Shown piece after piece: positions 2,259 through 21,043 of a stretch of DNA of 64,000 nucleotides. The position numbers were made by a program, and so were the translations under genes. The stretch is from Chromatiaceae bacterium (GTDB lineage: Bacteria > Pseudomonadota > Gammaproteobacteria > Chromatiales > Chromatiaceae). The stretch is from assembly GCA_025458165.1 (NCBI GenBank), contig JALOTB010000024.1, forward strand, positions 811 through 64,810, given 5' to 3'. A model generated the notes under the pieces. That model ran no database searches and was not told the origin of the DNA. It was given only the letters and a program-made list of their open reading frames with translations. Each line of letters starts with the position of its first letter. The first letter of the stretch is position 1.

Positions 2259-3142
2259 GGCCGATGCGCGTCGGCGAAACCCTGGTGCTCCATGCGGCCG
2301 ACCTATTGCGCTGGCGCGACGGCACCTCGGCCGCGGACCCCAACGACGCCACCGCGATGCGGCTGCTCAACTGGCCGGTGCGAGTCGCCTTCGACGCCCC
2401 CCCCGCGGACCTCGCCTGGCTGCATAAGCCGGGACAAACGGCCCTCTGGCGGCGCCCGACGCAGGACATCGTGCACGGGCTCGCGACCGATGCCGACCGC
2501 CAGCGCCCAGGGCCGACGCCGTTCGCGCTTCAGGGTACGGTGGTCGACGCGACCGGGGCCTTCCAGCCGCGCCGCTTCTCGCTCATGGCCGGCAGTGCCC
2601 AAGGGCACGACCTGGTGCTCTACCCGAGCACACAGGGCACGCGCTTCGGCAGCGGGGGCGGTCTCACCGGCTCGCTGCGCTTCGACCTGCTCGCTCAGCA
2701 CCTGCCCGACCCCGACGCCGAGCCAACGCCTGAGCCGTTCCTGCTCGATCCCAGGCGGCCGGCGGCCTGGGCGCTGATCGAGGTCGCGGTGACCGTCGGC
2801 GATGGCGACCTGAGGCGCTTCCGCGCCCAGGCCGGCCCGCTCGGCGACTTTCGGCTCTCGCTTTGGCGTCTGCCGCCGCTGCCGGCCGGCACCGCGGCCT
2901 ATGCCGCCGAGCTGAGCGTGCGAGCGGCACTGACTGCGCTCGATCGCGCCCCGCTCGATCCGACCGCGCTGGCCGAGATGTCGGTCGCCAGTTTGCCGCC
3001 AGCGCCGGACCCGACCGCCGCCCCGCCAACGCTCCCGGCCGACGCCTTCGGGCCGACGCTCGCGTTGAGCCTGGTCCCCGGCGCGGTACAGCGGGTACCG
3101 ACCGCCGCACCCCATCGGCTCGCCCTGAGGCCGGCCCCATGA
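2255..3142 (+). CDS. hypothetical protein (CIS-associated)
   Basis: 295-aa ORF whose start overlaps the upstream stop (ATGA). No family was recognised. Confidence 0.5.
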   Translation: MRPMRVGETLVLHAADLLRWRDGTSAADPNDATAMRLLNWPVRVAFDAPPADLAWLHKPGQTALWRRPTQDIVHGLATDADRQRPGPTPFALQGTVVDATGAFQPRRFSLMAGSAQGHDLVLYPSTQGTRFGSGGGLTGSLRFDLLAQHLPDPDAEPTPEPFLLDPRRPAAWALIEVAVTVGDGDLRRFRAQAGPLGDFRLSLWRLPPLPAGTAAYAAELSVRAALTALDRAPLDPTALAEMSVASLPPAPDPTAAPPTLPADAFGPTLALSLVPGAVQRVPTAAPHRLALRPAP

Positions 3143-6020: not shown

Positions 6021-6075
6021 GCGCGATGACGACGCCGATACCACCGCTCGACCCCGGCACGCGCCCCTGACCCCG

Positions 6076-7752
6076 ATGGCCATCGAGGGGGAATTGATGG
6101 CCGGGCGCGTGACGCTGACGCCGCGTCCAACGCGGCGGCGCGAGCCGGTGCTGGTCGCGGCCATGCTCGGGCACCTACCCGGGCGCGTGCGCCTAGAGCG
6201 GCTGCGCCCGGCGGCCCGCGCACTGATGCGCGAGGTCGGGCTCGGCGAGGTCGTCGACCAGCTCGAGCCCCTGGCCCAGCCGCGTCTCTCGCCCGCCGAG
6301 CTCGATCGCATCCGCGCCCTGGCCCACGTCCCGGTTCCACTCGCGGCGAGCGCCGAGCTCGACGACATCTTCCCGGACGCCCGCGACGACCGTCAGCCGA
6401 CCGGCCATCGCAGCCTGCTCGCCGGTACCCGCGCCTGGCTGCCGCAGGCGGTCGACGACTTCTTCGTCAACGGTGGCGAGCGGCTGTGGATCCTGCGCGT
6501 CCCCAGTGACGAGGGGCGCGCCGGCTTCCTGCCGCAAACCGCGGCGGGTCTCGCGAGCGCCCTGGCCGCGGCCCCGGCCCGCGACCCTGGGGCCACCACG
6601 CGTTGTGACGAGCTCGGGCCGACAGCCGCGCTCGACCTGACGCGCCCGCTCGACCTGCGCGGACTGGCCGCCGTCCTGCCGATCCCCGAGGTCGGCCTGA
6701 TCGCCGCGCCAGACCTCGAGCGCCTCCTGATCCCCGCGCGGCTACCCGACATCGCTCGGGTCCGAGTCGAGAATGCGGCGCCCCGCTTCGTGCCCTGCGG
6801 CACGTCGCTCGACGATGACCACCGTGAGCGGCGTCGCGACAGCGAGATGCCGGCGCGCGTCGCCGATCAGCCCGACGCCAACGAGCCCGCCTGCTCGCTC
6901 GCCGTCATCGGCCGCATCGCGGCGACGCTCGCGGCCTGGCGCCCCGATTGCCAATATCTGCACACCCTGCCGCTCGCTTACTCCGCGGCGGCCGGCCAGC
7001 CGGCGCTGCATCCCGCCGTCACGTCCGGACTCGCGGCCGTGCGCGGGGGACGCGCCGGCGCACCGCTCAAGCGCGTGCAGTTGCTCTGGCCCTATCTGCG
7101 CGGCCCACGCTTCGCGCTCGCGAGCCCGGTCGGCGTCATCGCCGGGCGTACCGCCGCGGTGGCGCGCGCCGAGGGCCCGTGGCGCTCGGTCGCGGGGCGG
7201 GCCCTCAGCACCGATGCGGCACCCTGGCCGCCGGTCGGTCTACGCACGGTCGAGGCGCTGTGGGCATCGCCCGGGGTCGGCGTCCTGGTACAGCGACGCG
7301 GGCGTGTGGAGCTCGAGGACGAGCGCCTCGCGGTACCGGCGCTGCACGCCGACGACTGGGCGCCGGCCTGGGGCGACGCCGGCGATATCCGCCGCTACGA
7401 CGGTTACCGCGCCGGCGAGGTGGTGCGCTTCATCGGGTTCCTGCTGCGCCGCCTGCGTGCGCTCGGCGAGCGGTTGGTGTTCGACCTCGACGCCCGCGAC
7501 CCGCGTCCGCGCCTGCTCCTGGATGACCTGTGCCGCGGCCTGCACGCCGCCGGGGCGCTGCGCGGTGCGCTGCCGGAGGAGGGCTATCGGCTGCGCGAGG
7601 GGGTCGCCGCCCCGGGGGTGATCGCCTGGGACATCGAGCTGGCACCGGCCTTCCCGATCGACCGGCTGCGACTCAGCTTCGTCAACCGCGACGGCGAATG
7701 GCAGGCGGGTCTGTTGCAGGAGCGGGTCGGCTCGGGGGTGTTGAATGGCTGA
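6076..7752 (+). CDS. divergent tail-sheath-like paralog
   Basis: The sheath-like motif DDFFVNGGERLWILRV parallels FFDNGGKQLFVVRV in the main sheath. The ATG at 6076 was chosen after the tube gene stop. The rest of the protein is strongly diverged. Confidence 0.55.
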   Translation: MAIEGELMAGRVTLTPRPTRRREPVLVAAMLGHLPGRVRLERLRPAARALMREVGLGEVVDQLEPLAQPRLSPAELDRIRALAHVPVPLAASAELDDIFPDARDDRQPTGHRSLLAGTRAWLPQAVDDFFVNGGERLWILRVPSDEGRAGFLPQTAAGLASALAAAPARDPGATTRCDELGPTAALDLTRPLDLRGLAAVLPIPEVGLIAAPDLERLLIPARLPDIARVRVENAAPRFVPCGTSLDDDHRERRRDSEMPARVADQPDANEPACSLAVIGRIAATLAAWRPDCQYLHTLPLAYSAAAGQPALHPAVTSGLAAVRGGRAGAPLKRVQLLWPYLRGPRFALASPVGVIAGRTAAVARAEGPWRSVAGRALSTDAAPWPPVGLRTVEALWASPGVGVLVQRRGRVELEDERLAVPALHADDWAPAWGDAGDIRRYDGYRAGEVVRFIGFLLRRLRALGERLVFDLDARDPRPRLLLDDLCRGLHAAGALRGALPEEGYRLREGVAAPGVIAWDIELAPAFPIDRLRLSFVNRDGEWQAGLLQERVGSGVLNG

Positions 7753-8273: not shown

Positions 8274-9164
8274 ATGACCGAGCCGACGCGTGCCAAGCTG
8301 TTTCCGGTCGAGGGACCGGCCGATCGGGGCGACCCGGCAAACGCGATCGACGTGCAGTTCAACCCGATGACACTGAAGGTGGCCTTGTCCAATTCGCTGA
8401 AGGCGAGTGAGGGCTCGGAGAACGGCAGTGCCGCGCAATTCGTCGACAAGAGCACCTCCACGCTGACCGTCGAGCTCCTGTTCGACACCAGCATCGAGGA
8501 CAGCGACGTGCGCCTGAAGACCAAGGCGATCGCCGAGGCCTTCATGAAGCCGGTCGAGTCCGGCGACCAGCAATTGGCCCCCAAGCGCTGCCTGTTCCAA
8601 TGGGGCGCCTTCGAGTTTGTCGGCATGATGGCGAGCTACGACGAGACGCTGGACTTCTTCTCGCCTGAGGGCACGCCGCTGCGCGCCACGCTCGCGATCA
8701 AGCTCAACGAGGACCGCTACCAATTCCGCCAATCGGCGGCCCGCAAATCCGCCCGCGAGACACCGACCTTCGGCGGGGCCGCGGCCGACAGCGCACCGGC
8801 GGCGAACAAAGGCGCCGGTCGGGACGAGCGGGCCTGGCGCGACACGGCCTTGTACAACGGCCAGGAGAGCCCGCGCCAGTCGGCGCCCGGCGGCCTCGCG
8901 GTTCCCGGCCTGACCGCGACCGCCGCGGTGGGCATGCAGGCCGAGGTCGGCCTAGGCGTCGGCGGTGGACCCACGGCGGCACCCAAGCCCGACATCGCCG
9001 CGCCGGGCTTCAGCTACGGGGCCTCGGCAACGCTTGGCACCATGATCCCTGGCGCCTTCTCTCCGGGGGCCGTGTCAAGCATCGGGCCGCCGCCGGCGGG
9101 GACCGGCTCGCCGGTCGCCGGCGGGGCCGGCGCCCGCGCCCGCACCAGCGTGGGGTTCGACTGA
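8274..9164 (+). CDS. CIS tube-initiator-like protein (Afp7-like N-terminal domain) with a Gly/Ala/Pro-rich tail
   Basis: The N-terminal ~150 aa (IDVQFNPMTLKV ... LTVELLFDT ... CLFQWGAFEFVGMMASYDETLDFFSPEGTPLRATLAIKL) resembles the tube-fold domain of eCIS/T6SS-like initiator proteins. No LysM motif was recognised in the C-terminal half. Confidence 0.6.
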   Translation: MTEPTRAKLFPVEGPADRGDPANAIDVQFNPMTLKVALSNSLKASEGSENGSAAQFVDKSTSTLTVELLFDTSIEDSDVRLKTKAIAEAFMKPVESGDQQLAPKRCLFQWGAFEFVGMMASYDETLDFFSPEGTPLRATLAIKLNEDRYQFRQSAARKSARETPTFGGAAADSAPAANKGAGRDERAWRDTALYNGQESPRQSAPGGLAVPGLTATAAVGMQAEVGLGVGGGPTAAPKPDIAAPGFSYGASATLGTMIPGAFSPGAVSSIGPPPAGTGSPVAGGAGARARTSVGFD

Positions 9165-9355
9165 TGCCGCTCCTGATCGACGAGCTCGAGCTGACCCTCG
9201 TCGACGAGGCGGCGGACGCGCCGGGCGGCGCGGGCGACGGCACCGCGCGCACGGCCCCCGGCGCGACCCTGACCCCGCTCGAAGGGGATGAGGTCGCGCT
9301 CGCCGCGATCCTCGACCTCATCCGTGAGCGCCGCGCGCGGCTGCGGGTGGACTAA
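9164..9355 (+). CDS. small hypothetical protein (Afp6-position ORF)
   Basis: 63-aa ORF with an ATGA start/stop overlap with the upstream gene. Its position is equivalent to the small ORFs found in Afp/PVC loci. Confidence 0.4.
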   Translation: MPLLIDELELTLVDEAADAPGGAGDGTARTAPGATLTPLEGDEVALAAILDLIRERRARLRVD

Positions 9356-9359
9356 GCCG

Positions 9360-10403
9360 ATGGACGCCGCCTATGTCAGCGCCCGGCCACGGATTGCGAT
9401 CGACGGCGAGACCCGCGCCGACCTCGGCTCGGCGCTGCGGGCGCTGACCGTGAACCGGCCGCTCAACGGCATGGCCCACGCCGAGCTACACCTGGTGTTC
9501 TGGGGCGCGGCCGACGACGACCCGGGGCCGAGCTACCGGTTTCTCGACGTCGCACTCGGCACGCGGCTGACAGTCGCGTTCGGCCAGGACGCGCCGGTCG
9601 AGGTCTTCAGTGGCGAGATCACCGCCCTCGAGGAGCGCTACGGCGGCGGCGCGCCCCGCCTGGTGCTGCTCGCGCAGGATCGCCTGCACCGGCTGGCCCG
9701 CCAGCGGCGCAGCCGCAGCTTCGAGGACCAGAGCCTCGACGCGGTCATCGCGGCGATCGCGAGCGATGGCGGGCTCGCGGCCGATGCCAACGTCTCGACG
9801 GTCAGCGCGACCTGGCACCAGTTGAACGAGAGTGATCTCGGGTTTCTGTTGCGGCTGCTCGCGCCCTTCGGCGCTGCGCTGCGCCTGGATGGGGAGACCC
9901 TGCGCGCGCGCCCCGAGGCGCCCGATCCGGCACCGATCGAGCTCGACACCAACGACAACGCGCTCGACGTGCGCCTGATCGCCGACCTGGCCCAGCAGCC
10001 CGGCGAGGTGCGTGTCCGCGGCTTCGACCCGGCGACCGATGAGGAGCTGGACGCCAGCGCCGGCACGCCGACCAGCCCCGGCGACGGCCAGAGCGCCGGC
10101 GACCTGCTCGCTGGGCTCGGCTGGCCGGCCGTCGAGCCGCTGCCGCGCCCTTTCCCTTGGCGGCAGGGGCTCGCCGATGGCTTCGCGCAGGGTGCGCTGG
10201 ACCGGCGCGCGCACGGCTTCGTGGCGGGGGAGATCCGCTGCGTCGGCGATCCGTCGCTCGCCCCCGGCCGCGAGGTGGACCTGTCGGGGACGACGGCGCG
10301 ACTCGCGGGGCGTTACCGGGTGGTCCATTGCGTGCATCGCTTCGATGCCGCCGACGGCTACCGCAGCCATCTGCGCGTCGCCCGCGCGGGCCTCGGGGTC
10401 TGA
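9360..10403 (+). CDS. phage late control gene D (gpD)-like baseplate hub protein (Afp8/VgrG N-terminal equivalent)
   Basis: WHQLNESDLGFLLRLLAPFGAALRLDGETL is the gpD/VgrG hallmark. The start is the ATG at 9360, 5 nt after the upstream stop. Confidence 0.8.
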   Translation: MDAAYVSARPRIAIDGETRADLGSALRALTVNRPLNGMAHAELHLVFWGAADDDPGPSYRFLDVALGTRLTVAFGQDAPVEVFSGEITALEERYGGGAPRLVLLAQDRLHRLARQRRSRSFEDQSLDAVIAAIASDGGLAADANVSTVSATWHQLNESDLGFLLRLLAPFGAALRLDGETLRARPEAPDPAPIELDTNDNALDVRLIADLAQQPGEVRVRGFDPATDEELDASAGTPTSPGDGQSAGDLLAGLGWPAVEPLPRPFPWRQGLADGFAQGALDRRAHGFVAGEIRCVGDPSLAPGREVDLSGTTARLAGRYRVVHCVHRFDAADGYRSHLRVARAGLGV

Positions 10404-10407
10404 GGCC

Positions 10408-11082
10408 ATGTCCGCGACCGGCCAGCACGCCCCCGGAGAGCTCCATGCCCTGCACCTCGGGCGCGTCGTCGAGAACCGCGATCCGGACGGGCGCGGGCGC
10501 GTGCAGGTGCTGCTGGTCTCGCTCGGCGTCGAGGTCTGGGCCAGTGTCGCAACCCCCTCCGCCGGCAGCGGGTACGGTGTCAGTTGCCTGCCGCGGCGCG
10601 AGGAGATCGTCGTCGTCGCCTTCATCGCGCCCGAGCTGCCGCTGGTGCTCGGCAGCCTGTGGAGCGGCGCGGGCTCGGCCCCCACCGAGGCCGACCCGGT
10701 CGATGACGTGTATCTGCTGCGCACGCCCGCCGGGCTGGTCGTCGAGCTCGACGACGGCGACGGCCCGAGCCTGACGCTGAGGACACCGGCCGGCTACAGC
10801 ATCGCCATCACCGACGGCGACGGTGGCGAGATCGCGATCACCCGCGGCGGCCAGACCGTCACCCTGACCCCAGCCGAGATCCGCATCGAGTCCAGTGGCC
10901 CGGTCAGTATCCAGGCCGGCGGCAGCGTGGATGTCCAAGCAAGTGCGGTGAACGTCAGCGCCGGCATGGTCAAAGTCGACGCCGGCATGTCGAAGTTCAG
11001 CGGCGTAGTCCAGGCCGACACGGTTATTGCCAACGCCGTGGTCGGGACTTCCTACACCCCGGGCGCCGGGAACATCTGGTAA
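10408..11082 (+). CDS. gpV/gp5-type central spike protein
   Basis: GRVVENRDPDGRGRVQVLL ... WASVATPSAGSGYGVSCLPRREEIVVVAFIAPELPLVLGSLWSG is an OB-fold spike domain. Beta-helix-like repeats follow (LTLRTPAGYSIAITDGDGGEIAITRGGQTVTLTPAEIRIESSG). Confidence 0.8.
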   Translation: MSATGQHAPGELHALHLGRVVENRDPDGRGRVQVLLVSLGVEVWASVATPSAGSGYGVSCLPRREEIVVVAFIAPELPLVLGSLWSGAGSAPTEADPVDDVYLLRTPAGLVVELDDGDGPSLTLRTPAGYSIAITDGDGGEIAITRGGQTVTLTPAEIRIESSGPVSIQAGGSVDVQASAVNVSAGMVKVDAGMSKFSGVVQADTVIANAVVGTSYTPGAGNIW

Positions 11083-11088
11083 CCGCCG

Positions 11089-13005
11089 ATGCCCTCGCTC
11101 CCGGTCCCGCGTCCCAATCCTGCCCGTGCCAGGCCGGAAGTGACCTTCACTACGCCGTTCTACGCGGGCGCGGGCGCCGCGGGCGTGCGACTGCACCGGT
11201 ACCTGGACAGCGAGTTCATCCCGCGTTTTTTGAGCGACCTCAGCGCCGGACGCCTCGCGGACCCGACCACCGAGGACTGGTGGCGGACCGACCGATTCAG
11301 CCCGCACGGCGACGACCTGGTACTGCGGCTGCCGATCCATCGGGCCTTCTATCTCATTGCCTGCGAGCTGGTCTGCGACCGCCCGCCACGGCCGGCGCTC
11401 GACCCGGCTCGCATCCGCTCGGCCGGCTTCGTGATCCGCCGCCGCGCCGGCACCGCGCCGGCACCCACCCCGGGCGGGCGCCGCGCCGGCGACGTGCTCG
11501 CGAACTGGCGGGCGCGCCTCGGCCCGACCCCGTCGACCTGCCCTGGTGCGCCAACCGAGCCTGCCCGGACCGCAACCCCGGCGCTGACGCCGGTCGACAC
11601 CGGGCTGGCCGCGAGCGCGCCGGGCGCCCTGCCCATCGCGGTCGCCGGCGCCGCCGACGCGCGCTGGATGATCGAGGACGGTGAGCCGCTCGGCTGGCAG
11701 CGAGCGGCGCTGAGCGACCTGGGCGCACCCGAGCCCGACCCGGACCCGAGCCGGCGGGTCGCGGCGCGCCGCGGCGCCGGCGGCCGGCCCCCGGCGCGGC
11801 CCGCGCTGGCCTACACCGGTGAAGAGACCCACCCGCTGCATCCGGTGCTGGTCCGCGATGCCAGCGGCCGGCCGCACACCATCCTCTACGGTTTCCTGCC
11901 CCTCGGTGGTCAGGCGCTCGCCATCGGCAGCCCGTTTGACGCCGCCGACGAGGAGGCCGCCCTCGCGGCCGACCGGGCGCTCCTGAGCTGGCCGTTCGGG
12001 CACCGCGGCCGCGCCGAGCTGACCTGGCAGGCCGCCGATGGCGCTCTGGTACAGGACGGGCGACCGAGCCGGGCCTGCTTCGAGCTGCTGGAGCTCCTGG
12101 TCAACCGTTATCACCTCGGTGAGGCGGGCGCGGCGGGCGCGGAACCGCTCAATGACGACCTCGGCAAGAGCGCGGCGCAGTTGCGCTTCGTCCAGGCGCC
12201 CCCCTTGCCGCCGCTGCCCTCCGGCACCCCGTCCCCGCCACCGCCCGAGGTATCCCGCTTCTCGCTGCTGGACTACCTGACCGACTGCTTCGCGGCCGGC
12301 ATCGACAACCCGCTCGCGGCATGGCTCGCCGCGCGCCGCCAAGCGATCGACGCGTCCGGCGGCACGCCGCCCGCGGTGCTCGCCGAGCGTCTCCCGCGAC
12401 GGCCGGCCGACGGCACGGGAGAGCTGGCCGGCTTCGCGCTCCGTATCGCCTGCGCCGATGCCGAGGAATGGCGACTACTCCTCGGCCAGCGGCTACTCGA
12501 TCAGGCGCGGCGCACCGGCTCCGAGCTGTCGCTGCCGAAGTTCCGCCAGGCGCCGGACGACCTCTACCAGGTGATCCCCTTCGTACGCAGCGTCGATGAC
12601 GCCGGCTGCGAGCGCCTGACCTGGGCCCCTGCGGCCATGCGCAGCGCGCCGTTTCGCGTCGCCGCACCGTTCGATCCCGACGCCAGCCGCCCGACGCTGA
12701 TCCAGATGCCCGGCCTCGGCGACCTCAAACGCGGGCTCGCGAAGGGCGCGGCGATGCTGGTGCCGCCCGATACCGCTCGGCTGCTCGGTGCCCTGAATCT
12801 CGACAAGGGGGCCGCCCCGGGCGTCGCGCCCGAGTCAGCGCCGCCAGGGGGCGGCCTCGGGGTCCAGATGATCTGCTCGTTCAGCCTCCCGATCATCACG
12901 CTGGTCGCGATGATCCTGCTGATGATCATGGTGATGCTTCTAAACATCGTCTTCTTCTGGCTGCCGTGGGTGAAGATCTGTCTCCCCTTTCCGAAGCTGA
13001 GGTAG
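11089..13005 (+). CDS. hypothetical 638-aa protein with a C-terminal hydrophobic membrane-anchor-like tail
   Basis: Long ORF in the operon between spike and gp25. The last ~45 aa are MICSFSLPIITLVAMILLMIMVMLLNIVFFWLPWVKICLPFPKLR (nt 12868-13002). No family was recognised. Confidence 0.6.
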   Translation: MPSLPVPRPNPARARPEVTFTTPFYAGAGAAGVRLHRYLDSEFIPRFLSDLSAGRLADPTTEDWWRTDRFSPHGDDLVLRLPIHRAFYLIACELVCDRPPRPALDPARIRSAGFVIRRRAGTAPAPTPGGRRAGDVLANWRARLGPTPSTCPGAPTEPARTATPALTPVDTGLAASAPGALPIAVAGAADARWMIEDGEPLGWQRAALSDLGAPEPDPDPSRRVAARRGAGGRPPARPALAYTGEETHPLHPVLVRDASGRPHTILYGFLPLGGQALAIGSPFDAADEEAALAADRALLSWPFGHRGRAELTWQAADGALVQDGRPSRACFELLELLVNRYHLGEAGAAGAEPLNDDLGKSAAQLRFVQAPPLPPLPSGTPSPPPPEVSRFSLLDYLTDCFAAGIDNPLAAWLAARRQAIDASGGTPPAVLAERLPRRPADGTGELAGFALRIACADAEEWRLLLGQRLLDQARRTGSELSLPKFRQAPDDLYQVIPFVRSVDDAGCERLTWAPAAMRSAPFRVAAPFDPDASRPTLIQMPGLGDLKRGLAKGAAMLVPPDTARLLGALNLDKGAAPGVAPESAPPGGGLGVQMICSFSLPIITLVAMILLMIMVMLLNIVFFWLPWVKICLPFPKLR

Positions 13006-13102: not shown

Positions 13103-13501
13103 ATGACCAGCGTCGTGCCGTTGATCCAGAGCTGGCCGCTCGATGGGATCGATGCCAACGGCCGGCTGGCGGCCGCGCGCGACGACGAGAGCGTGCGCGA
13201 GGTGATGCTGAGCATCCTGCTGACACGCCCCGGCGAGCGGCTGATGCGCCCGCAGTTCGGCGCCGGCCTGCTGGATTTCGTCCACCAACCGAACAATCAG
13301 ACCACGCGCGCACTGATCGCCAATCTGGTCAAGAAGGCGATCGGGGAATGGGAGACCCGCGTCGTCGTGCTCGGCGTCGAGGTCTCGCCCGACCCGGATG
13401 ACCCGGCCGAGGTGCATATCGAGGTGCAGTATCGGCTGCGCCATGCAACGGTCCCGCAGGGCCTCGGCCTGAGCCTGAGGCTGGGTGCCGCCGGCCGCTG
13501 A
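13103..13501 (+). CDS. gp25/GPW-like baseplate wedge protein (Afp9-like)
   Basis: ESVREVMLSILLTRPGERLMRPQFGAGLLDFVHQPNN ... AIGEWETRV matches the GPW_gp25 family. The ATG at 13103 is preceded by agagg. Confidence 0.85.
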   Translation: MTSVVPLIQSWPLDGIDANGRLAAARDDESVREVMLSILLTRPGERLMRPQFGAGLLDFVHQPNNQTTRALIANLVKKAIGEWETRVVVLGVEVSPDPDDPAEVHIEVQYRLRHATVPQGLGLSLRLGAAGR

Positions 13502-13529: not shown

Positions 13530-15749
13530 ATGCCCCTACCGGTCCCGAGCCTGGATGACCGCCGCTTCGACGACTTGGTCGCCGAGGCCGAGGCGCGGCT
13601 CCGCGCACACCTGCCCGAGCTGACCCAGATCGCCCCGGGCGATCCGCTGCACGCGCTGGTCGATCTGCTCGCCTGGCTGACCGAGACCATCCTGTATCGC
13701 GCCAACCTGATCCCAGAGCGCCAGCGGCGGGTGCTGCTGAACCTGTTGCAGGTACCCTTGCGTGCGGCACGCCCGGCGCGCGGCCTGGTCTGTATCGATG
13801 CGAGCCCGCGCAGCGCGCGTCTGCCGGGGCTGCTGCCCGAGGGCAGTCAGCTCACCGGCGCCGGGCAGACCGTAACGACCATCGGCGAGGTCCGCCCGAC
13901 CCCGCTCGCGCTGGTCCCACTGATCAAGGAGGCAATCGACGCCGCGACGCTGGCGGCGATGGGGCTGACCCAGCAGGCGCTCAAGGACCAGCACGGCCTC
14001 GGCGCCGCGGACCAGGTGGCGGCCTTCGCGCCGCGTGCGTTCGCGTCCGAGCGTGAGCCGTTGAGCCTCGCGACCAGCCTCGACGGCTTCTACTACCTGG
14101 CCCTGCTCGCACCGCGTGAGCTGGCCGCCCGCATCGATGAGCTACGCGCCGCGCTGGCCGGGCAGACACTCAACCTCGCGCTGGCCCCGCTCGACGATCG
14201 CCCCGGCGAGCGCGCCGACAGCGAGGCGTTGCGCGACCGCCGGCTGGTATGGGAGTTGCTGACTGAAGACCTTGAAGGAGCCGGCGGCGACGCCGACGGG
14301 CTGTTGACGGTTCCCTTGGAGGTCCTTCACGACAGCTCCGGTGGCGCGCGGCGCCCGGGGGTGGCCCGCCTGCGGCTGCCACCGAGCGCACCACTGCTGC
14401 AGCCGCTCCTCGTCCCGGACCCCCTGTTCGCCGGCGTCGGCGAGCGCCCGCCCGAGCTGCCGGCCCCGCTGCCGCCCGAGCGCGTGGTCTGCTGGCTGCG
14501 GCTGCATTGCCCGGAAGAGCCCACCCTGCCGCTCGGCTACCTCGGCATCAACGGCGTCGAGGTGGTTGGGCAGGCGACGCGGCGGGACTTGATCATCGGC
14601 GTCGGCAGCGGCCGACCCGGGCAGGTCGTCGACTTGCCTGATCGCGACATCGACCCGGCCGAGATCGAGCTCGACGTCGAGCAGCCAGCCGGCTGGGAGC
14701 GCTGGCAGCGCGTCGAGGTGCTGACCGGGCGGGGCGCCGACGAGCCGATCTACCGGCTCGATGCCCAAGCCGGCCAGGTGACCTTCGGGGACGGCCAGCA
14801 CGGGCGCCGCCCACCGGAGCGCCGGCGCATCCGCATCGCCCGCTATCGGTTCGGCGGCGGTAGCGGGGGCAATCTGCCGCCCCAATCGCTGACCAGCGTG
14901 GTCGGCGCCAGCCGGCTCGGCGTCCGCCAGGAGCGTGCGCTTAGCGGCGGACGCGATGGCGAGTCCGTCGTCGACGCGGAGCGGCGCATCCCGGAGTTCC
15001 TGACCCACCGCAACCGCGCCGTCACGGCGGAGGACTTTCGCCTGCTCGCCACCGGCAACCCGCTGCGCCCGGTCGCGCGCGCCGAGGTGATCGCGGGGCT
15101 CTTGCCGGGCAGCAGTCTCGCGACCCTGCGCCGCGACATCCCCGGCGTGGTCAGCGTGTTCGTGATCCCCCCGGGGCAACCGGAGCTCGCGCGCACACCG
15201 CGCCCGACCCAGGGGCTGCTCAACGACCTGTTCACCTGGCTGGTGGATCGCGTGCTGATCGGCACCGAGCTGTTCGTGCTGAGCCCGCGGTACATCCCGC
15301 TCGCGGTCGGGGTGCGGGTGCGCGTGCGCGACCCGGCCACCGAGCAGGAGACGCTGGCGGCGGTGCGCCAGGCACTGGTCGACTACCTCTGGGTGCTCGC
15401 CCCCGGCGGCAGCCTCGGCGGCGGCTGGCCGTTCGGCGAGCCGGTGCGCGGGGCGGAGCTCGAGACCCAGGTCGGGCGGGTACCGGGCGTGCGCGAGGTC
15501 GGCCCGCTGGTGCTGTTCACGATGCGCGAGGGCGTGTGGCAGTCGCTCGGTGAGGGCGCCGTGCTCGACCTGGAGGACTTCGATGTACCAGACCTGCGCG
15601 GGGTCAGCGTGGTCACGAGCGGCCTGCCCGACCTGCCCGGCGGGCTGCAACCGGCCGCACCGGGGCTCGGTGGTAGCGGCGGGTCCGGCGGCGGCGCGGG
15701 GGCTGGCGGCCGCAGTGTACCGGCGCCGGTGATCCCCGAGCTCTGCTGA
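13530..15749 (+). CDS. Baseplate-J / gp6-like baseplate protein (Afp11-like)
   Basis: The N-terminus MPLPVPSLDDRRFDDLVAEAEARLRAHLPELTQIAPGDPLHALVDLLAWLTETILYRANLIPERQRR is typical of putative baseplate assembly proteins. The ATG at 13530 follows ggag. Confidence 0.85.
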   Translation: MPLPVPSLDDRRFDDLVAEAEARLRAHLPELTQIAPGDPLHALVDLLAWLTETILYRANLIPERQRRVLLNLLQVPLRAARPARGLVCIDASPRSARLPGLLPEGSQLTGAGQTVTTIGEVRPTPLALVPLIKEAIDAATLAAMGLTQQALKDQHGLGAADQVAAFAPRAFASEREPLSLATSLDGFYYLALLAPRELAARIDELRAALAGQTLNLALAPLDDRPGERADSEALRDRRLVWELLTEDLEGAGGDADGLLTVPLEVLHDSSGGARRPGVARLRLPPSAPLLQPLLVPDPLFAGVGERPPELPAPLPPERVVCWLRLHCPEEPTLPLGYLGINGVEVVGQATRRDLIIGVGSGRPGQVVDLPDRDIDPAEIELDVEQPAGWERWQRVEVLTGRGADEPIYRLDAQAGQVTFGDGQHGRRPPERRRIRIARYRFGGGSGGNLPPQSLTSVVGASRLGVRQERALSGGRDGESVVDAERRIPEFLTHRNRAVTAEDFRLLATGNPLRPVARAEVIAGLLPGSSLATLRRDIPGVVSVFVIPPGQPELARTPRPTQGLLNDLFTWLVDRVLIGTELFVLSPRYIPLAVGVRVRVRDPATEQETLAAVRQALVDYLWVLAPGGSLGGGWPFGEPVRGAELETQVGRVPGVREVGPLVLFTMREGVWQSLGEGAVLDLEDFDVPDLRGVSVVTSGLPDLPGGLQPAAPGLGGSGGSGGGAGAGGRSVPAPVIPELC

Positions 15750-18256
15750 TGGACGTCAACGGCACGCCGTACATCCTGTTGCGCGGACCCGCGGAGCTCG
15801 CGCACGGCTCGTCGGCGTTTACCTGGGACCCCCGCCGCGGGGCCTTCACCCTGCGCCAGGCGCAGCAGCTGCGGCTGCCGCGGGTCCCGGTCGCGGACGC
15901 ACGCTCGGCCTGGGCCGCGGCCAGCGCGATGGTACGCGACCCCTTCGGCCAGGTCGCGACGATCGAACGGGTCGAGCCGGGCACCGGAGGGGCGGCCGGT
16001 CCGGACCGCGATCACGTCGTCGTCGATGCCGCCCGCGGCGTCGCGCCGCTGCGCGACGAGGAGCTTCGCCTGGTCGCCGCACCGGAGCCGGCGATGCGGC
16101 TCATCGACCTCGCCCTCGGCGGCGCCCCGGACGACGCCCGCCTGGTGCTCGGGTACAGCGACGGCGCCGGGCACCACGGCCTGATCCAGTTCCACCTCGG
16201 GCGCCGCTGGCAGCAGGTGCTGCACCCCGAGCTGCCGGCCGCTCCGGTGCGCGCGATCGTCGCCCCCGAGGGCGCGGTCTGGTGCGTCACCACCACCGCC
16301 CTCTGCTACGGCACCGGCGGGCCGCTGCCGTTGCCCTATCGGCCCCAGCCGTTGCGCTTCGAGCCCGAGACCATCAACCCGCATCCATTCGCGCTGCGGT
16401 GGTCGCGTCCACTGCCGGCGGATCTGCGCCCGCTCGCGCTCTGCGCCGATGCCACGCGCCTCTACCTGCTCGCCGAGGACTGGCCGGGCTGGGAGGGCGA
16501 CCCGGACGCCGGCGCGGGGCTCGGCACCCAGCGGGTGCTGACCCGCCCGCGCGATCCCGACGCGGCGGCACCCTGGACCGACTGGCCGTTGGCGCCGGAG
16601 GTCCCCTACGTGATCGACCTCGGCGTGCTCGCCGAGGGTCGCCTCGCCGCGCCGGCCCCGCGCGAGGCCGGCGATGCGCGTTTCGAGCGGCGCGACTGCC
16701 CGGTCATCGAGCTCCACCAGCACCCCGACAGCGGCGTGCGCAGCGCCCGGCTCGTGCTGGAGCGCTATCCGCGCCAGGAGATCGGTTCGCCGCGGCTGGT
16801 CACCAACGTCGAGGACCGGCTCTACTACCAGGCCTCGGCCCGCGCCGGTAGCGCGCCGCGCCCGCGGCTGCTCACGGCCCTCCCCCGCCCGGAGTTCCCA
16901 ACCGCGGCACAGGTCACCTTGAGGCTCGGTGCGCGCGGCGAGGGACTCGACGGCGGGCGCCCGGACACCCCCTGGCACCGCATCTACATCGACGGCTGCA
17001 TACCACCCGGCTGTCGGCTCAGGCTTTTCGCCAAGGCCTACAATGACCCGAGCCCGGCCGCCCGTGCCGCGTTGCCCTACGAGGAGCAGCCCGCGCCCTT
17101 GTGGAGCCCGATCGGCTCGGAGCTGCCTTTCCACGCCCCGATCGCGCCGAGTAAGCCGGGGGAGAGCGGCCTGTTCGAGGTGCTCTTGCAGCATCGCAGT
17201 GGGGCCGTGCGCACGCTGACGGGTCGCTACCTGCAACTGCGCATCCGCATGGAGGGCGACGGGCATCACACCCCGGCGATCCACGCGCTGCGTGTCTACG
17301 CCCCGCGCTTCTCCTGGCAGGAGGCCTGGCTGCCGACCCTGTTCCGGCAGCAGGCCGAGCGCGACGCCGATCCGGCGCTGAATCAGGGCCCAGCCAACGG
17401 CGCCGACGTGCGTGAGCGGCTGCTCGCGGCCTGCGAGGGGCTGTTGACGCCGATCGAGGCCCGCATCGCGGCCTCCGAGGCACTGCTCGACCCGGCTACG
17501 GCCCCGACCGCGCTGCTGCCGGTGCTCGCCACGACGCTCGGCATCCGGCTGCCCGCGGACTGGCCGGACGAGCGCCGCCGGCGGTTACTGGCAAGCGGCT
17601 GTCTGCTGCAGCAGTGGCGCGGCACCTGGCCGGGCCTGCGGCTCGCGCTCGACATCGCGACCGACGGCGGGGTCGCCCGCGGCGAGGTGGTCCTGGTCGA
17701 GCATTTCCGCCTGCGGCGCACCTTCGCGACCATTCTCGTCCTTGACTTGGAGGACCGCGATCACCCGCTGACGCTCGGCACCGGCGAGAGCGGCAACAGC
17801 ATCGTCGGCGACAGCCTGATCCTCGCCGATGGGGCAAGCCGCGAGCTCTTGGCCCTGCTGGCCCCGGAGCTGGCCCCCGAGCTGGTCGCCGCCGGGCCGG
17901 CCGATACCCCGCTCGGCGCCGGCAGCCGCGATGCGCGGATCATCGCCGCCTTCTTCGACCGCTATAGCCACCGCGTCAGCGTGCTGCTGCACGGCCCCGG
18001 GCGCGCCCGCCGCGCGGCGGTCGAGGCGGTGCTCGCGACCGACCTGCCGGCGCACCTGCACGCGCGGATCATCGAGACGGACCGGCCGTTTGTGCTCGGA
18101 CTTGCGCCGCTGCTCGAGATCGACACCTTCTTGACCACCACCCCCCCGCCGCGCCGCGCGACGCTCGACGACACCTGGCTCGGCCACGAGGGCGTGCTGA
18201 CCAACCCGGTCGCGCTGTCGCCGCGCGACCTGAACGCGCGCGGCCCGGCCGCCTGA
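15749..18256 (+). CDS. gp7 / P2 gpI-like baseplate (phage tail) protein (Afp12-like)
   Basis: 835 aa with an ATGA overlap with gp6. The C-terminal third (WLPTLFRQQAERD ... LLPVLATTLGIRLPADWPDERRRRLL ... LLQQWRGTWPGLRLAL) resembles the conserved phage tail protein domain. Confidence 0.7.
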   Translation: MDVNGTPYILLRGPAELAHGSSAFTWDPRRGAFTLRQAQQLRLPRVPVADARSAWAAASAMVRDPFGQVATIERVEPGTGGAAGPDRDHVVVDAARGVAPLRDEELRLVAAPEPAMRLIDLALGGAPDDARLVLGYSDGAGHHGLIQFHLGRRWQQVLHPELPAAPVRAIVAPEGAVWCVTTTALCYGTGGPLPLPYRPQPLRFEPETINPHPFALRWSRPLPADLRPLALCADATRLYLLAEDWPGWEGDPDAGAGLGTQRVLTRPRDPDAAAPWTDWPLAPEVPYVIDLGVLAEGRLAAPAPREAGDARFERRDCPVIELHQHPDSGVRSARLVLERYPRQEIGSPRLVTNVEDRLYYQASARAGSAPRPRLLTALPRPEFPTAAQVTLRLGARGEGLDGGRPDTPWHRIYIDGCIPPGCRLRLFAKAYNDPSPAARAALPYEEQPAPLWSPIGSELPFHAPIAPSKPGESGLFEVLLQHRSGAVRTLTGRYLQLRIRMEGDGHHTPAIHALRVYAPRFSWQEAWLPTLFRQQAERDADPALNQGPANGADVRERLLAACEGLLTPIEARIAASEALLDPATAPTALLPVLATTLGIRLPADWPDERRRRLLASGCLLQQWRGTWPGLRLALDIATDGGVARGEVVLVEHFRLRRTFATILVLDLEDRDHPLTLGTGESGNSIVGDSLILADGASRELLALLAPELAPELVAAGPADTPLGAGSRDARIIAAFFDRYSHRVSVLLHGPGRARRAAVEAVLATDLPAHLHARIIETDRPFVLGLAPLLEIDTFLTTTPPPRRATLDDTWLGHEGVLTNPVALSPRDLNARGPAA

Positions 18257-18274: not shown

Positions 18275-19195
18275 ATGACCACCGCGACCGATACCGCAAC
18301 CTTGCGTGCCGATGCGGCGCTGGCGGAGCCGCTGCGGCGGGTCGCCTTCGAGGCCGGGATGCTGCTCGGGATCGAGGCGACCCGCGACGAGCAGGCCTAT
18401 CACCGCCGCCGCCTCACCCGCGGGCAATACTGGCTGCACGGGGCCGGGACCGTCGCCGGGCTACGGGTCGCGATCGAGCCGACCGCGCCCGCCGATGACG
18501 AACCGGCGGACACCGACATGCCGGTGCGCCTCACGGTCTCGCCGGGCGTCGGCATCGACGGCCTGGGCCGCGAGCTGCTGCTGACCGAGACCCACTGCTT
18601 GGATCTGCGCGCCTGGCTGCGGGCGCAGGATCGGCCCTGGCTGCTCGGCGGCTTCGACGACACGGCCGACCGGCTGCACCTCGGCGTCTTCGCCCGCCAC
18701 CAGGACTGCCCGGTCGGGCTGCAACCGGTGCTCGCACGCAAGCTCAACCTTGGCACCGACCCGGTGCAGCCGAGCCGCATCGCCGACGCGGTGGCGCTCG
18801 AGCTCGACCTGCTCGACCCGGCCGCCGCGCTCGAACGGCTCGGGCCCTGGCCGCTGCACGGTCCGTTGCAAGGCGCGGCGGCCGGTCCGCTGCCCGATCT
18901 CAGCGCCGAGGAACAGGCCGCGCTGGACGCGCTGCCCGCCGGCGCGGACGGCGAGCGCGCACGCCTCGAGCTCAGACTGCGCCTGTTGCACCTGTTCGAC
19001 ACCCCCTGGGCCGCACCGGCGCTCGCGGCCGACCTGCTGCGCTTGGTCCGGGTGCCGCTCGCCCGCCTGACGCTGCGCACCGCCGACCCGGCGACCGAGC
19101 TGGTCGTGAATCCCGGCCGGATCTCGATCGACAACCTCAGCCGCCCGTTCGTGCCGACCGCGGCGCAACTGGCGGCGCTCGCCCTCGCTGGCTGA
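18275..19195 (+). CDS. hypothetical protein, paralog family member A (shared N-terminal domain)
   Basis: 306 aa. The N-terminal block FEAGMLLGIEATRDEQAYHRRRL ... AGLRV ... VSPGVGIDGLGRELLL aligns with the N-termini of the next two ORFs. Confidence 0.6.
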   Translation: MTTATDTATLRADAALAEPLRRVAFEAGMLLGIEATRDEQAYHRRRLTRGQYWLHGAGTVAGLRVAIEPTAPADDEPADTDMPVRLTVSPGVGIDGLGRELLLTETHCLDLRAWLRAQDRPWLLGGFDDTADRLHLGVFARHQDCPVGLQPVLARKLNLGTDPVQPSRIADAVALELDLLDPAAALERLGPWPLHGPLQGAAAGPLPDLSAEEQAALDALPAGADGERARLELRLRLLHLFDTPWAAPALAADLLRLVRVPLARLTLRTADPATELVVNPGRISIDNLSRPFVPTAAQLAALALAG

Positions 19196-21017: not shown

Positions 21018-21043
21018 AACAGCCCGCACCCGAGGCGACACCG

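What the first reader, a model, noticed from the sequence alone, without database searches (positions are those of the whole stretch)
11089..13005. 638-aa unknown protein with a C-terminal membrane-anchor tail inserted between spike and gp25, and no PAAR gene
Canonical Afp/PVC loci go directly from VgrG/spike to gp25 and PAAR. Here a long ORF of unknown family sits between them. It ends in a strongly hydrophobic segment (MICSFSLPIITLVAMILLMIMVMLLNIVFFWLPWVKICLPFPKLR, nt 12868-13002) that looks like a tail anchor. No PAAR-like ORF is recognisable anywhere in the locus.

Membrane-attached, intracellularly firing CIS variants have been described in Streptomyces and cyanobacteria. A tail-anchored component encoded in the hub/baseplate module raises the possibility that this particle is tethered to a membrane rather than released. 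Alternatively, this protein may cap or load the spike.
Basis: partly seen in the sequence, partly recalled or inferred. Interest (0 to 1): 0.65.

Follow-up and report, generated by a model that had tools for sequence, protein, structure and literature searches.

The report
Membrane-helix protein beside injection-system spike
A phage-tail-like injection machine that lacks the usual spike-sharpening PAAR protein instead always encodes, right after its spike gene, a large uncharacterised protein ending in an unusually conserved membrane-spanning helix, which suggests this widespread class of machines is physically coupled to a membrane.

Summary
ORF 11089-13005 (+) encodes a 638-aa protein, here called X, lying between a gp5/gpV-type spike (10408-11082) and gp25 (13103-13501). 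It ends in the only strong transmembrane segment of the locus. No PAAR domain was found among the window ORFs scanned.

X is not a local insertion. It is a core, syntenic gene of a large eCIS lineage. The locus matches the published description of subtype IIb (Chen 2019), in which PAAR absence and unnamed conserved genes were already noted. The family is large: 1402 clusters at 50% identity and 268 species genomes. It has no Pfam, NCBIfam, PHROG, PDB-sequence or Foldseek match and no phage homolog.

In 193 of 195 full-length members the tail is present. It is the most conserved part of the protein. The spike's most conserved part is its extreme tip (SYTPGAGNIW).

The function was not determined. 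My best guess is a spike-proximal subunit that inserts into the producer's inner membrane and holds the particle there (about 0.4). The main rival is a PAAR substitute whose helix enters the target membrane (about 0.3).

Two features stay unexplained: the positive charges sit on the C-terminal flank, and the Cys596/Cys631 pair covaries. No published characterisation of this protein was found.

The parts
9164..9355 (+). Small 63-aa ORF between the tube-initiator (CIS_tube) gene and the hub gene. A 53-56-aa gene sits at the same place in related loci, which is the Afp6/Cis6 'plug' position.
   Evidence: called as a gene in the source metagenome. Counterparts. No family hit. Identity with Afp6/Cis6 was not tested.
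9360..10403 (+). gpD/gp27-type baseplate hub (347 aa).
   Evidence: Pfam Phage_GPD, E 1.8e-12. Start taken from the metagenome gene call.
10408..11082 (+). gpV/gp5-type central spike (224 aa). It has an OB fold followed by a beta-helix and ends in ...SYTPGAGNIW.
   Evidence: Pfam Phage_base_V, E 6e-16. It aligns with the gp5 half of Alg8 (7aef), Anabaena Cis8 (7b5h), T6SS VgrG, Afp8 and Pvc8 up to residue ~197. Conservation rises toward the C-terminal tip, which is ~92% consensus in 74 loci.
11089..13005 (+). Protein X, 638 aa (alternative start GTG 11140, 621 aa). It is a core gene of the lineage and has no named family.
11089..12642 (+). X residues 1-518: a globular alpha/beta region modelled with high confidence, with no detectable fold relative.
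   Evidence: AF2 mean pLDDT 79 and pTM 0.69, with most blocks above 90. Foldseek against PDB and BFVD gave no hit with E <= 0.001. A profile search against PDB sequences gave nothing.
11446..11658 (+). X residues ~120-190: a low-complexity Ala/Pro/Gly/Arg-rich insertion, present only in the window's sub-clade. Typical family members are ~550 aa.
   Evidence: Alignment A1. pLDDT 34-62.
12643..12768 (+). X residues 519-560: a highly conserved extended motif, S-x-P-F-R-V-A-A-P-F-D-P-x-A-S-R-P-x-L-I-Q-M-P-x-L-x-D-L-K-R-G-L-A-K-G-A-A-M-x-x-P. It is modelled with low confidence and is a candidate docking segment.
   Evidence: P541 100%, P559 99%, F522 93%, P535 90% in 194 sequences. pLDDT 51-68. The docking role is an inference.
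12769..12867 (+). X residues 561-593: a linker of near-constant length but variable sequence.
   Evidence: Length 26-38 residues (median 30), median 25% identity to the window copy. Mostly low pLDDT, below 50 for 574-599.
12868..13002 (+). X residues 594-638: the hydrophobic tail. The motif is W/M-I-C-S-F-S-L-P-(helix)-W-L-P-W-V-K/R-I-C-L-P-F-P-K. The predicted TM helix runs from about 600 to 625, followed by a basic, partly hydrophobic end of about 12 residues.
   Evidence: Hydrophobicity. AF2 helix. Median 64% identity across the family. Per-site conservation. Cys596/Cys631 co-occurrence. Charge bias.
13103..13501 (+). gp25/GPW baseplate wedge protein (132 aa).
   Evidence: Pfam GPW_gp25, E 7.8e-23. 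Start.
13531..15749 (+). Baseplate J (gp6/Afp11-like) protein.
   Evidence: Pfam Baseplate_J, E 3.8e-4, just below the cut-off. Position is conserved in all related loci.
15749..18256 (+). Tail_P2_I (gp7/Afp12-like) baseplate protein.
   Evidence: Pfam Tail_P2_I, E 5.8e-9.

Best explanation
X is a core structural or accessory subunit of a PAAR-less contractile injection system. It links the spike end of the particle to a lipid bilayer.

Shown:
- X is encoded immediately after the spike in every related locus with upstream sequence.
- It consists of a ~500-residue soluble region of novel fold, a conserved extended motif, a ~30-residue spacer and one C-terminal TM-type helix.
- The helix is nearly universal in the family and is its most conserved part.
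- The spike's own most conserved part is its tip.

Inferred:
- X is made in the cytoplasm without a signal peptide and without any recognisable chaperone.
- Its C-terminal helix therefore inserts into the producer's cytoplasmic membrane, in the manner of a tail anchor.
- The conserved C-terminal module binds the spike tip or hub.
- The spacer then holds the baseplate within about 10 nm of the membrane. The particle would thus be assembled, parked or fired at the inner membrane, in a T6SS-like or tCIS-like posture, rather than floating free.
- The conserved polar or small face of the helix (T604, A607, L611, N619, F622) would drive self-association into a trimer or hexamer that matches the spike or baseplate symmetry.
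For: - Synteny: gpD-gpV-X order holds in ~73 of 77 genome loci and in five annotated loci from Gamma-, Beta-, Alpha- and Deltaproteobacteria, Acidobacteria and Chloroflexi.
- TM segment: KD 2.98 and dG -4.4. AF2 gives a single helix with pLDDT up to 97. The only weak PDB-sequence match is the single-span TM protein PsaJ.
- No signal peptide or second TM segment. X is the only TM protein of the locus.
- The tail is present in 193 of 195 full-length members.
- Domain layout of conserved motif, constant-length variable linker and helix.
- Spike-tip conservation.
- No homolog in 50,697 phage records, which fits a function that free virions do not need.
- Precedent: both lineage-II systems read about here (Streptomyces, Anabaena) were reported to be cytoplasmic or membrane-attached and to depend on a TM protein encoded in the cluster (PMC12237407; PMC8894136).
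Against: - No experiment or complex model links X to the particle or to a membrane. The X-spike contact is inferred only from adjacency and parallel conservation.
- Positive charges sit on the C-terminal flank (mean 2.85 K+R against 0.88 on the N-flank; C>N in 223 of 253 sequences). By the positive-inside rule this disfavours an N-in/C-out tail anchor.
- A passive anchor need not be the most conserved part of a protein (64% median identity against 25% for the linker).
- Cys596 and Cys631 flank the helix and co-occur perfectly (221 both, 32 neither, 0 single). This is hard to reconcile with the two lying on opposite membrane faces.
- The locus keeps tail-fibre-like genes and a DUF4157 effector, as released eCIS do.
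Confidence: 0.4

Rival explanations
1. X is a PAAR substitute and target-membrane inserter. It caps the blunt end of the gp5-type beta-helix through its conserved C-terminal module and rides on the spike of a released particle. On firing, the C-terminal helix is driven C-terminus first into the target cell's cytoplasmic membrane. There it self-associates and acts as an anchor, pore or translocon that lets effectors, such as the DUF4157 protein, cross the last membrane. This would work like a viral fusion peptide, a phage pilot protein or the TM domains of T6SS prePAAR effectors.
For: - The spike resembles the gp5 half of spikes that carry PAAR-like tip proteins in solved systems (Alg10 and Cis10), yet this locus has no PAAR. 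Published work says PAAR is absent from subtype IIb.
- X is the lineage-specific gene next to the spike.
- The spike tip and the X tail are each the most conserved part of their protein. Membrane-active peptides typically show this pattern; passive anchors do not.
- The charge bias predicts N-out/C-in, which is the topology reached by insertion from outside a target cell.
- Near-invariant polar or small residues sit inside the helix: T604 95%, A607 99%, N/D619 97%.
- Fibre-like and effector genes are present.
Against: - A ~30-residue, very hydrophobic and non-amphipathic helix would need shielding in a soluble released particle. No Eag-like chaperone was recognised in the locus.
- X has no PAAR-like sequence or fold.
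- The flexible 30-residue linker suits a tether better than a rigid tip.
- There is no evidence that X is part of the particle.
Confidence: 0.3
2. X is a re-entrant or hairpin membrane-associated assembly factor. The ~41-residue hydrophobic stretch folds back on itself, so both ends stay on the cytoplasmic side with Cys596 and Cys631 in contact. X would then act as a membrane-bound platform or chaperone for hub and spike assembly and would not remain in the mature particle.
For: - Perfect Cys596/Cys631 co-occurrence with recurrent Y/R replacement, across about 4 independent changes.
- This is the top MI pair, and other top pairs are also antiparallel-like: 593-636, 595-634, 602-627.
- Pro601/Pro626 and Cys596/Cys631 lie symmetrically about a variable, polar-tolerant centre at 612-616.
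- The basic C-flank would stay cytoplasmic, which satisfies the positive-inside rule.
Against: - AF2 twice predicts one uninterrupted helix with very high confidence.
- Only about 4 independent changes support the covariation, so shared ancestry could explain much of it.
- Two arms of ~15 residues are short for a full-span hairpin.
Confidence: 0.12
3. X is an ordinary baseplate or spike-cage structural protein of a released eCIS. Its hydrophobic C-terminus would be buried inside the protein assembly and never meet a membrane.
For: - Core-gene behaviour and position inside the baseplate module.
- Strong sequence conservation of the tail would also fit a buried protein-protein interface.
- Other eCIS lineages have lineage-specific baseplate additions such as the spike cage (PMC8894135).
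Against: - The segment has the length, hydrophobicity and flanking Trp residues (W594, W624, W627) of a bilayer-spanning helix.
- It is separated from the folded part by a disordered linker.
- No phage baseplate has a homolog.
Confidence: 0.1

Closest known systems
eCIS subtype IIb 'subtype-specific conserved genes' (Chen et al. 2019, Cell Rep, PMC6899500)
   Same: The locus fits the published description: afp8 split into gp27-like and gp5-like ORFs, a small afp6-position gene, afp10/PAAR absent, divergent afp12 and afp13, and extra conserved genes with no known domains.
   Different: That paper only catalogues such genes. It gives no function and, in the text searched, no mention of a transmembrane segment ('transmembrane' occurs 0 times). 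Subtype assignment by Afp11 phylogeny was not done here.
PAAR-repeat spike tip proteins (Afp10/Pvc10/Alg10/Cis10, T4 gp5.4)
   Same: Both are encoded next to the spike or gp25 genes. X appears in exactly the lineage that lacks PAAR, and its spike is of the kind that carries PAAR-like tip proteins in solved systems.
   Different: X has no PAAR or DUF4150 sequence match. It is 5-6 times larger, mixed alpha/beta rather than a beta-cone, and carries a TM helix.
Streptomyces CisA (SCO4242), membrane adaptor of a type IId CIS (PMC12237407)
   Same: Both are cluster-encoded single-pass membrane proteins of a lineage-II CIS. CisA was proposed to bring the baseplate to the cytoplasmic membrane and is required for firing.
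   Different: CisA has a disordered cytoplasmic N-terminus, a central TM segment and a folded periplasmic C-terminal domain. It is encoded downstream of the baseplate genes. X has a folded N-terminal region and a C-terminal TM segment with only ~12 residues beyond it, and lies between spike and gp25. No sequence relation was seen.
Anabaena tCIS Cis13 transmembrane tail fibre (PMC8894136)
   Same: A TM helix in a cluster-encoded baseplate-attached protein anchors the particle to a membrane. Deleting the helix frees the particles.
   Different: Cis13 is a fibre-like trimer, and its TM helix is restricted to filamentous cyanobacteria. The window's two CIS13-like proteins have no TM segment. X has no CIS13 match.
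T6SS TssL (tail-anchored membrane-complex subunit) and TM-domain prePAAR effectors with Eag chaperones
   Same: From general knowledge, TssL is a C-tail-anchored protein that links baseplate and membrane. Eag chaperones stabilise the N-terminal TM domains of T6SS effectors (PMC12881460 abstract).
   Different: X has no DotU/TssL or PAAR domain. No Eag-like gene was recognised. In X the TM segment is C-terminal, single and invariant rather than variable.

Membership tests
eCIS subtype IIb (Chen et al. 2019) | afp8 split into separate gp27-like and gp5-like ORFs | tested here: met
   Phage_GPD ORF 9360-10403 and Phage_base_V ORF 10408-11082 are separate genes.
eCIS subtype IIb (Chen et al. 2019) | afp10 (PAAR) absent | tested here: met
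   No PAAR or DUF4150 hit in any scanned window ORF or in the precomputed Pfam of five related loci. A PAAR gene elsewhere in the genome cannot be excluded.
eCIS subtype IIb (Chen et al. 2019) | afp6 homolog present | tested here: inconclusive
   A conserved 53-63-aa ORF sits before the hub gene, but homology to Afp6 was not shown.
eCIS subtype IIb (Chen et al. 2019) | Divergent afp12 and afp13 present, with a single afp11 | tested here: met
   Tail_P2_I at E 5.8e-9. Two ORFs show weak N-terminal CIS13_fam hits (E 1e-8 to 1e-10, far below the cut-off). There is one Baseplate_J ORF.
eCIS subtype IIb (Chen et al. 2019) | Placement in the IIb clade of the Afp11 phylogeny | not tested
PAAR-repeat proteins (PF05488 / DUF4150) | PAAR repeat sequence signature and a conical beta fold that caps the spike | tested here: not met
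   No Pfam hit even at E <= 5 for X and four distant homologs. The AF2 model is mixed alpha/beta and Foldseek against PDB gave no hit. Binding to the spike could not be tested.
Tail-anchored membrane proteins (class, not a homologous family) | A single TM segment at the extreme C-terminus, with no signal peptide and no other TM segment | tested here: met
   Only 9-32 residues (mean 14) follow the helix.
Tail-anchored membrane proteins (class, not a homologous family) | N-in/C-out topology in the producer's cytoplasmic membrane | not testable with these tools
   The charge bias (C-flank 2.85 K+R against N-flank 0.88) argues against it by the positive-inside rule. Reporter fusions or fractionation are needed.
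CisA-like membrane adaptors (Streptomyces type IId) | Disordered cytoplasmic N-terminus, central TM segment and folded periplasmic C-terminal domain | tested here: not met
   X has a folded N-terminal region and only ~12 residues after the TM segment. The CisA architecture is from PMC12237407.
Cis13-type TM tail fibre (Anabaena tCIS) | CIS13 baseplate-binding N-terminal domain plus a TM helix | tested here: not met
   X has no NCBIfam CIS13 hit. The window's CIS13-like ORFs lack TM segments, with KD maxima of 1.21 and 1.74.

The most novel reading that the evidence does not exclude
In this widespread PAAR-less lineage the spike is capped not by a sharpening cone but by a large protein. Its ultra-conserved C-terminal helix would be carried through the target envelope and planted, C-terminus first, in the target's cytoplasmic membrane. 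It would act as a built-in fusion-peptide-like translocon that lets an eCIS deliver cargo across the last membrane. The covarying Cys596/Cys631 pair would then mark a pre-insertion folded or stapled state of that peptide.
Probability: 0.3. Interest if true: 0.85.

Novelty: new variant of a known kind. Interest (0 to 1): 0.62.

Why it matters
Contractile injection systems are sorted by how they meet membranes. They are released (eCIS), docked to a trans-envelope complex (T6SS), thylakoid-anchored (Anabaena) or cytoplasmic with a membrane adaptor (Streptomyces).

Here an entire uncharacterised lineage carries a membrane-spanning protein as a fixed part of its spike and baseplate module, and it lacks PAAR. 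The family was found in 268 species-level genomes, mostly Proteobacteria. These include cultivable methanotrophs, sulfur bacteria and marine hydrocarbon degraders.

Either reading would add a new solution to the membrane problem. One is a minimal one-protein membrane dock in diderm bacteria. The other is a spike-borne membrane-inserting peptide.

The question is directly testable because cultivable hosts exist. It also bears on engineering eCIS for delivery, since a natural spike-linked TM module could serve as a handle for membrane targeting.

Finally, the family has at least 1402 clusters at 50% identity, a confident novel fold and no Pfam model. It is a clear annotation gap.

Tried and rejected
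- **Chance or non-coding ORF:** rejected (GC3 0.88, hundreds of homologs).
- **Known family:** Pfam, also at E <= 5 on five divergent members, NCBIfam and PHROGs gave nothing meaningful.
- **Solved or predicted structures:** a profile search against PDB sequences gave only a chance TM match to PsaJ. Foldseek of the full model against PDB and BFVD, and of the C-terminal module against PDB, gave no hit with E <= 0.001.
- **Phage or plasmid origin:** tblastn against 50,697 phage and 72,556 plasmid records found no match.
- **Tape-measure protein:** rejected, because ~500 residues fold into a confident globular alpha/beta region too large for a tube lumen.
- **Variable effector or cargo:** unlikely. 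X shows strict one-to-one synteny and conservation, whereas the DUF4157 effector sits at the 3' end of the locus.
- **Sortase or exosortase-type C-terminal sorting signal** (motif, TM segment, basic tail): rejected, because there is no N-terminal signal peptide.
- **Stand-alone short form of the C-terminal module** (P0104, 181 aa): this is an artefact of an N-run in a Tara scaffold.
No multimer tool was available.
- **Two further homolog searches** (C-terminal query; profile query) added only fragments or nothing new.
- **Literature:** eight full-text searches found no paper that describes this protein or characterises a IIb system.
- **Deaminase domain in the effector C-terminus:** no Pfam hit for the HAE...PCxxC motif.
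Full report
**1. What is in the sequence**

The window is ~72% GC. Bases 1641-32971 carry a tightly packed, + strand contractile-injection-system cluster. In order it encodes:
- a Pvc16_N cap
- an unknown 295-aa protein
- the sheath
- a gp19 tube protein
- an unknown ~560-aa protein
- a second tube-like protein
- a CIS_tube initiator
- a 63-aa ORF
- a Phage_GPD hub
- a Phage_base_V spike
- the ORF in question
- GPW_gp25
- Baseplate_J
- Tail_P2_I
- two proteins with weak CIS13-type N-termini
- two large unknown proteins
- an AAA+ ATPase
- a 1405-aa eCIS_core (DUF4157) protein

This map rests. The rest of the window is ordinary chromosome: DsrC-like, molybdopterin oxidoreductase, AcrB, GGDEF-EAL and similar genes. 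The same protein occurs on JGI metagenome contigs.

The ORF 11089-13005 translates to 638 aa. A gene caller used GTG 11140, giving 621 aa.

The best 19-residue Kyte-Doolittle mean is 2.98 and the Hessa dG sum is -4.4 kcal/mol. Nothing else in the protein exceeds 1.6. No other protein of the cluster has a comparable segment.

No PAAR or DUF4150 domain was found in any eCIS-locus ORF or in any high-GC3 ORF scanned elsewhere in the window. Gene packing leaves no room for a separate small gene in the core module.

**2. The gene is a fixed part of a lineage, not an insertion**

A first search found 66 homologs at 32-100% identity. A profile search of 1.84 billion cluster representatives found 1402 clusters with E <= 1e-3, of which 1150 had E <= 1e-10. 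A scan of one genome per species found relatives in 268 of them. Most are Gamma-, Beta- and Alphaproteobacteria and Desulfobulbales. A few are Acidobacteria and Chloroflexi. Cultivable carriers include:
- Thioalkalivibrio paradoxus
- Methylomonas species
- Marinobacter species
- Thalassolituus maritimus
- Hahella
- Aliikangiella marina

In every locus with upstream sequence the order is hub, spike, X. In six loci with called genes, X sits directly between the spike and gp25, and the rest of the cluster is collinear with the window. A seventh has the same order, but no gp25 gene was called in the gap after X. The same spike-X-gp25-J order holds in a Terriglobia genome at ~40% identity in the tail.

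Chen et al. 2019 describe eCIS subtype IIb in terms that fit this cluster (PMC6899500):
- afp8 is split into gp27-like and gp5-like ORFs
- afp6 is present
- divergent afp12 and afp13 are present
- there are 2-3 subtype-specific genes with 'no known functional domains'

So the missing PAAR and the existence of unnamed conserved genes are already in the literature. What X is, and that it carries a transmembrane segment, is not. The word 'transmembrane' does not occur in that paper. Eight full-text searches found no description of the protein.

**3. Anatomy of X**

AlphaFold2 with 65 sequences gives a confident model, with mean pLDDT 79, pTM 0.69 and 296 residues at pLDDT >= 90. The parts are:
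- Residues 1-~518: a mixed alpha/beta globular region. In the window's sub-clade it is interrupted by a low-complexity insertion at ~120-190 that typical 550-aa members lack.
- Residues 519-560: a strongly conserved extended motif with P541 at 100%, P559 at 99% and F522 at 93%. It is modelled with low confidence. This is what one expects of a segment that folds only on a partner.
- Residues 561-593: a linker of constant length (26-38 residues, median 30) but only 25% identity.
- Residues ~600-625: a single helix. Its pLDDT is 94-97 when the C-terminal module is modelled alone.

Neither the whole model nor the C-terminal module has a Foldseek match in PDB or BFVD at E <= 0.001. A profile search of PDB sequences finds only a chance resemblance of the tail to the single-span protein PsaJ. 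No Pfam, NCBIfam or PHROG family matches, even at E <= 5 on divergent members. No phage or plasmid record encodes a relative.

**4. The tail**

Of 195 family members of at least 450 aa, 193 have the C-terminal hydrophobic segment. The two exceptions look frameshifted. One apparent short form is a scaffold-gap artefact.

The tail is the most conserved part of the protein. Median identity to the window copy is 64% for 594-635, 45% for the motif region and 25% for the linker. Per-site conservation is:

| Residue | Conservation |
|---|---|
| F598 | 98% |
| S/N599 | 100% |
| P601 | 98% |
| T604 | 95% |
| A607 | 99% |
| L611 | 97% |
| N/D619 | 97% |
| F622 | 93% |
| W624 | 100% |
| P633 | 98% |

T604, A607, L611, L618, F622 and L625 lie on one helical face. 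The most variable positions (612, 616, 623) lie on the opposite face. I read this as a helix-helix packing face opposed to a lipid-facing one. Trp at 594 and at 624/627 brackets the helix, as at bilayer interfaces.

Two features do not fit a plain tail anchor.
- **Charge bias.** Positive charges are concentrated after the helix. The mean K+R is 2.85, against 0.88 in the 15 residues before it, and the C-flank exceeds the N-flank in 223 of 253 sequences. By the positive-inside rule this favours a cytoplasmic C-terminus.
- **Cys covariation.** Cys596 and Cys631 lie 35 residues apart on either side of the helix and co-occur perfectly. There are 221 sequences with both, 32 with neither (often Tyr/Arg) and none with only one. 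This is the strongest covarying pair. Other top pairs are also antiparallel-like. About four independent changes occur on a distance tree. This hints that the two ends meet in some state, for example a hairpin or a folded pre-insertion form. It conflicts with the straight helix that AlphaFold predicts. I leave it unexplained.

**5. The spike**

The 224-aa spike aligns with the gp5-like half of several spikes up to about residue 197. These include Alg8 (7aef), Anabaena Cis8 (7b5h), T6SS VgrGs, Afp8 and Pvc8. Alg8 and Cis8 are described as tipped by PAAR-like Alg10 and Cis10.

The last ~30 residues are specific to this lineage. Across 74 distinct loci, conservation rises steadily toward the C-terminus. 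The final SYTPGAGNIW is almost invariant and is identical in Terriglobia.

So the most constrained part of the spike is its tip, and the most constrained part of the adjacent gene's product is its C-terminal module. I infer that the two contact each other. This was not tested.

**6. How it most likely works**

What is shown: X is a lineage-defining, spike-adjacent core protein with a genuine, universal and unusually constrained membrane-type helix on a constant-length flexible spacer.

What is inferred: it couples the spike end of the machine to a bilayer.

Which bilayer is open.

I put the producer's inner membrane first, at about 0.4, for these reasons:
- X is made in the cytoplasm with no signal peptide and no recognisable chaperone, so insertion there is the default fate.
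- The motif-spacer-helix layout is that of a tether.
- Phages lack the protein.
- Both lineage-II systems read about here turned out to be cytoplasmic or membrane-attached and to depend on a cluster-encoded TM protein. These are Cis13 in Anabaena and CisA in Streptomyces. Both are unrelated to X and differently built.

The main rival, at about 0.3, is that X replaces PAAR on the spike tip and its helix is driven into the target's cytoplasmic membrane. This reading better explains three things. The tail is the most conserved region. The charge bias predicts N-out/C-in. The cluster keeps fibre-like and effector genes. It has to explain how so hydrophobic a helix is kept soluble on a released particle.

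Lesser alternatives are a hairpin-type membrane-bound assembly factor (about 0.12) and a purely structural baseplate protein with a buried tail (about 0.1).

**7. Novelty and verdict**

The cluster type is known. The PAAR gap and the unnamed genes are catalogued. Membrane-coupled CIS exist. I did not find a description of this protein family or of its spike-adjacent, ultra-conserved TM tail. It also differs in architecture and position from every described CIS membrane anchor. I therefore class it as a new variant of a known kind.

It is worth following up because the family is large, has a confident novel fold, occurs in cultivable bacteria, and bears on how an injection machine meets a membrane.

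Noticed in passing
window 28754-32971 (+) and 32979-34013 (+): The 1405-aa eCIS_core (DUF4157) protein at the 3' end of the cluster ends with ...SHAETQFLEW...GRPICDRCLGF. This is an HAE...PCxxC pattern like the zinc site of nucleotide deaminase toxins. A 344-aa ORF of unknown family follows 8 nt later and could be an immunity protein. Pfam finds no deaminase domain in the C-terminal 238 residues and nothing in the downstream ORF.
   Followed up: partly
window 12874-12876 and 12979-12981 (X residues Cys596 and Cys631): The two cysteines flanking the hydrophobic helix co-occur perfectly across the family: 221 with both, 32 with neither, 0 with one. Tyr/Arg is a recurrent replacement pair. AlphaFold's straight helix would put them ~50 A apart.
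   Followed up: partly
window 11053-11082 (spike C-terminus): The spike's last ten residues, SYTPGAGNIW, are nearly invariant in 74 loci from several phyla. They are more conserved than its OB-fold domain. The last ~30 residues do not align with PAAR-capped spikes in the PDB.
   Followed up: yes
window 9164-9355 (+): A 63-aa ORF lies between the tube-initiator and hub genes, with 53-56-aa counterparts at the same place in all annotated related loci. This is the position of the Afp6/Cis6 spike plug, but no family hit supports the identity.
   Followed up: partly
window 6073-7752 (+) and 2255-3142 (+): Two further lineage-conserved genes have no Pfam, NCBIfam or PHROG match. One is a ~560-aa protein between the two tube genes (450-580 aa in related loci). 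The other is a ~295-aa protein after the Pvc16 cap gene (250-300 aa in related loci).
   Followed up: partly
window 2-853 (+), cut by the window start: The C-terminal part of a sigma-54-dependent activator (AAA_lid_14 and HTH_8) lies upstream of the cluster. A full-length Sigma54_activat gene sits in the same place in a distant related locus (L002), which suggests sigma-54 control of the cluster.
   Followed up: no
window 11446-11658 (X residues ~120-190): A low-complexity Ala/Pro/Gly/Arg-rich insertion (pLDDT 34-62) is present only in the window's sub-clade. Some relatives carry even longer inserts here and at ~370-390, giving proteins of up to 739 aa.
   Followed up: no
window 18275-19195, 19236-21017, 21014-24808, 24949-26751 (+): There are four consecutive large genes after the baseplate genes. 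The first two have only weak similarity to the baseplate-binding N-terminus of CIS13 fibres. The 1264-aa and 600-aa proteins have no family match. Their lengths are conserved in related loci, which is unusual for receptor-binding fibres.
   Followed up: no
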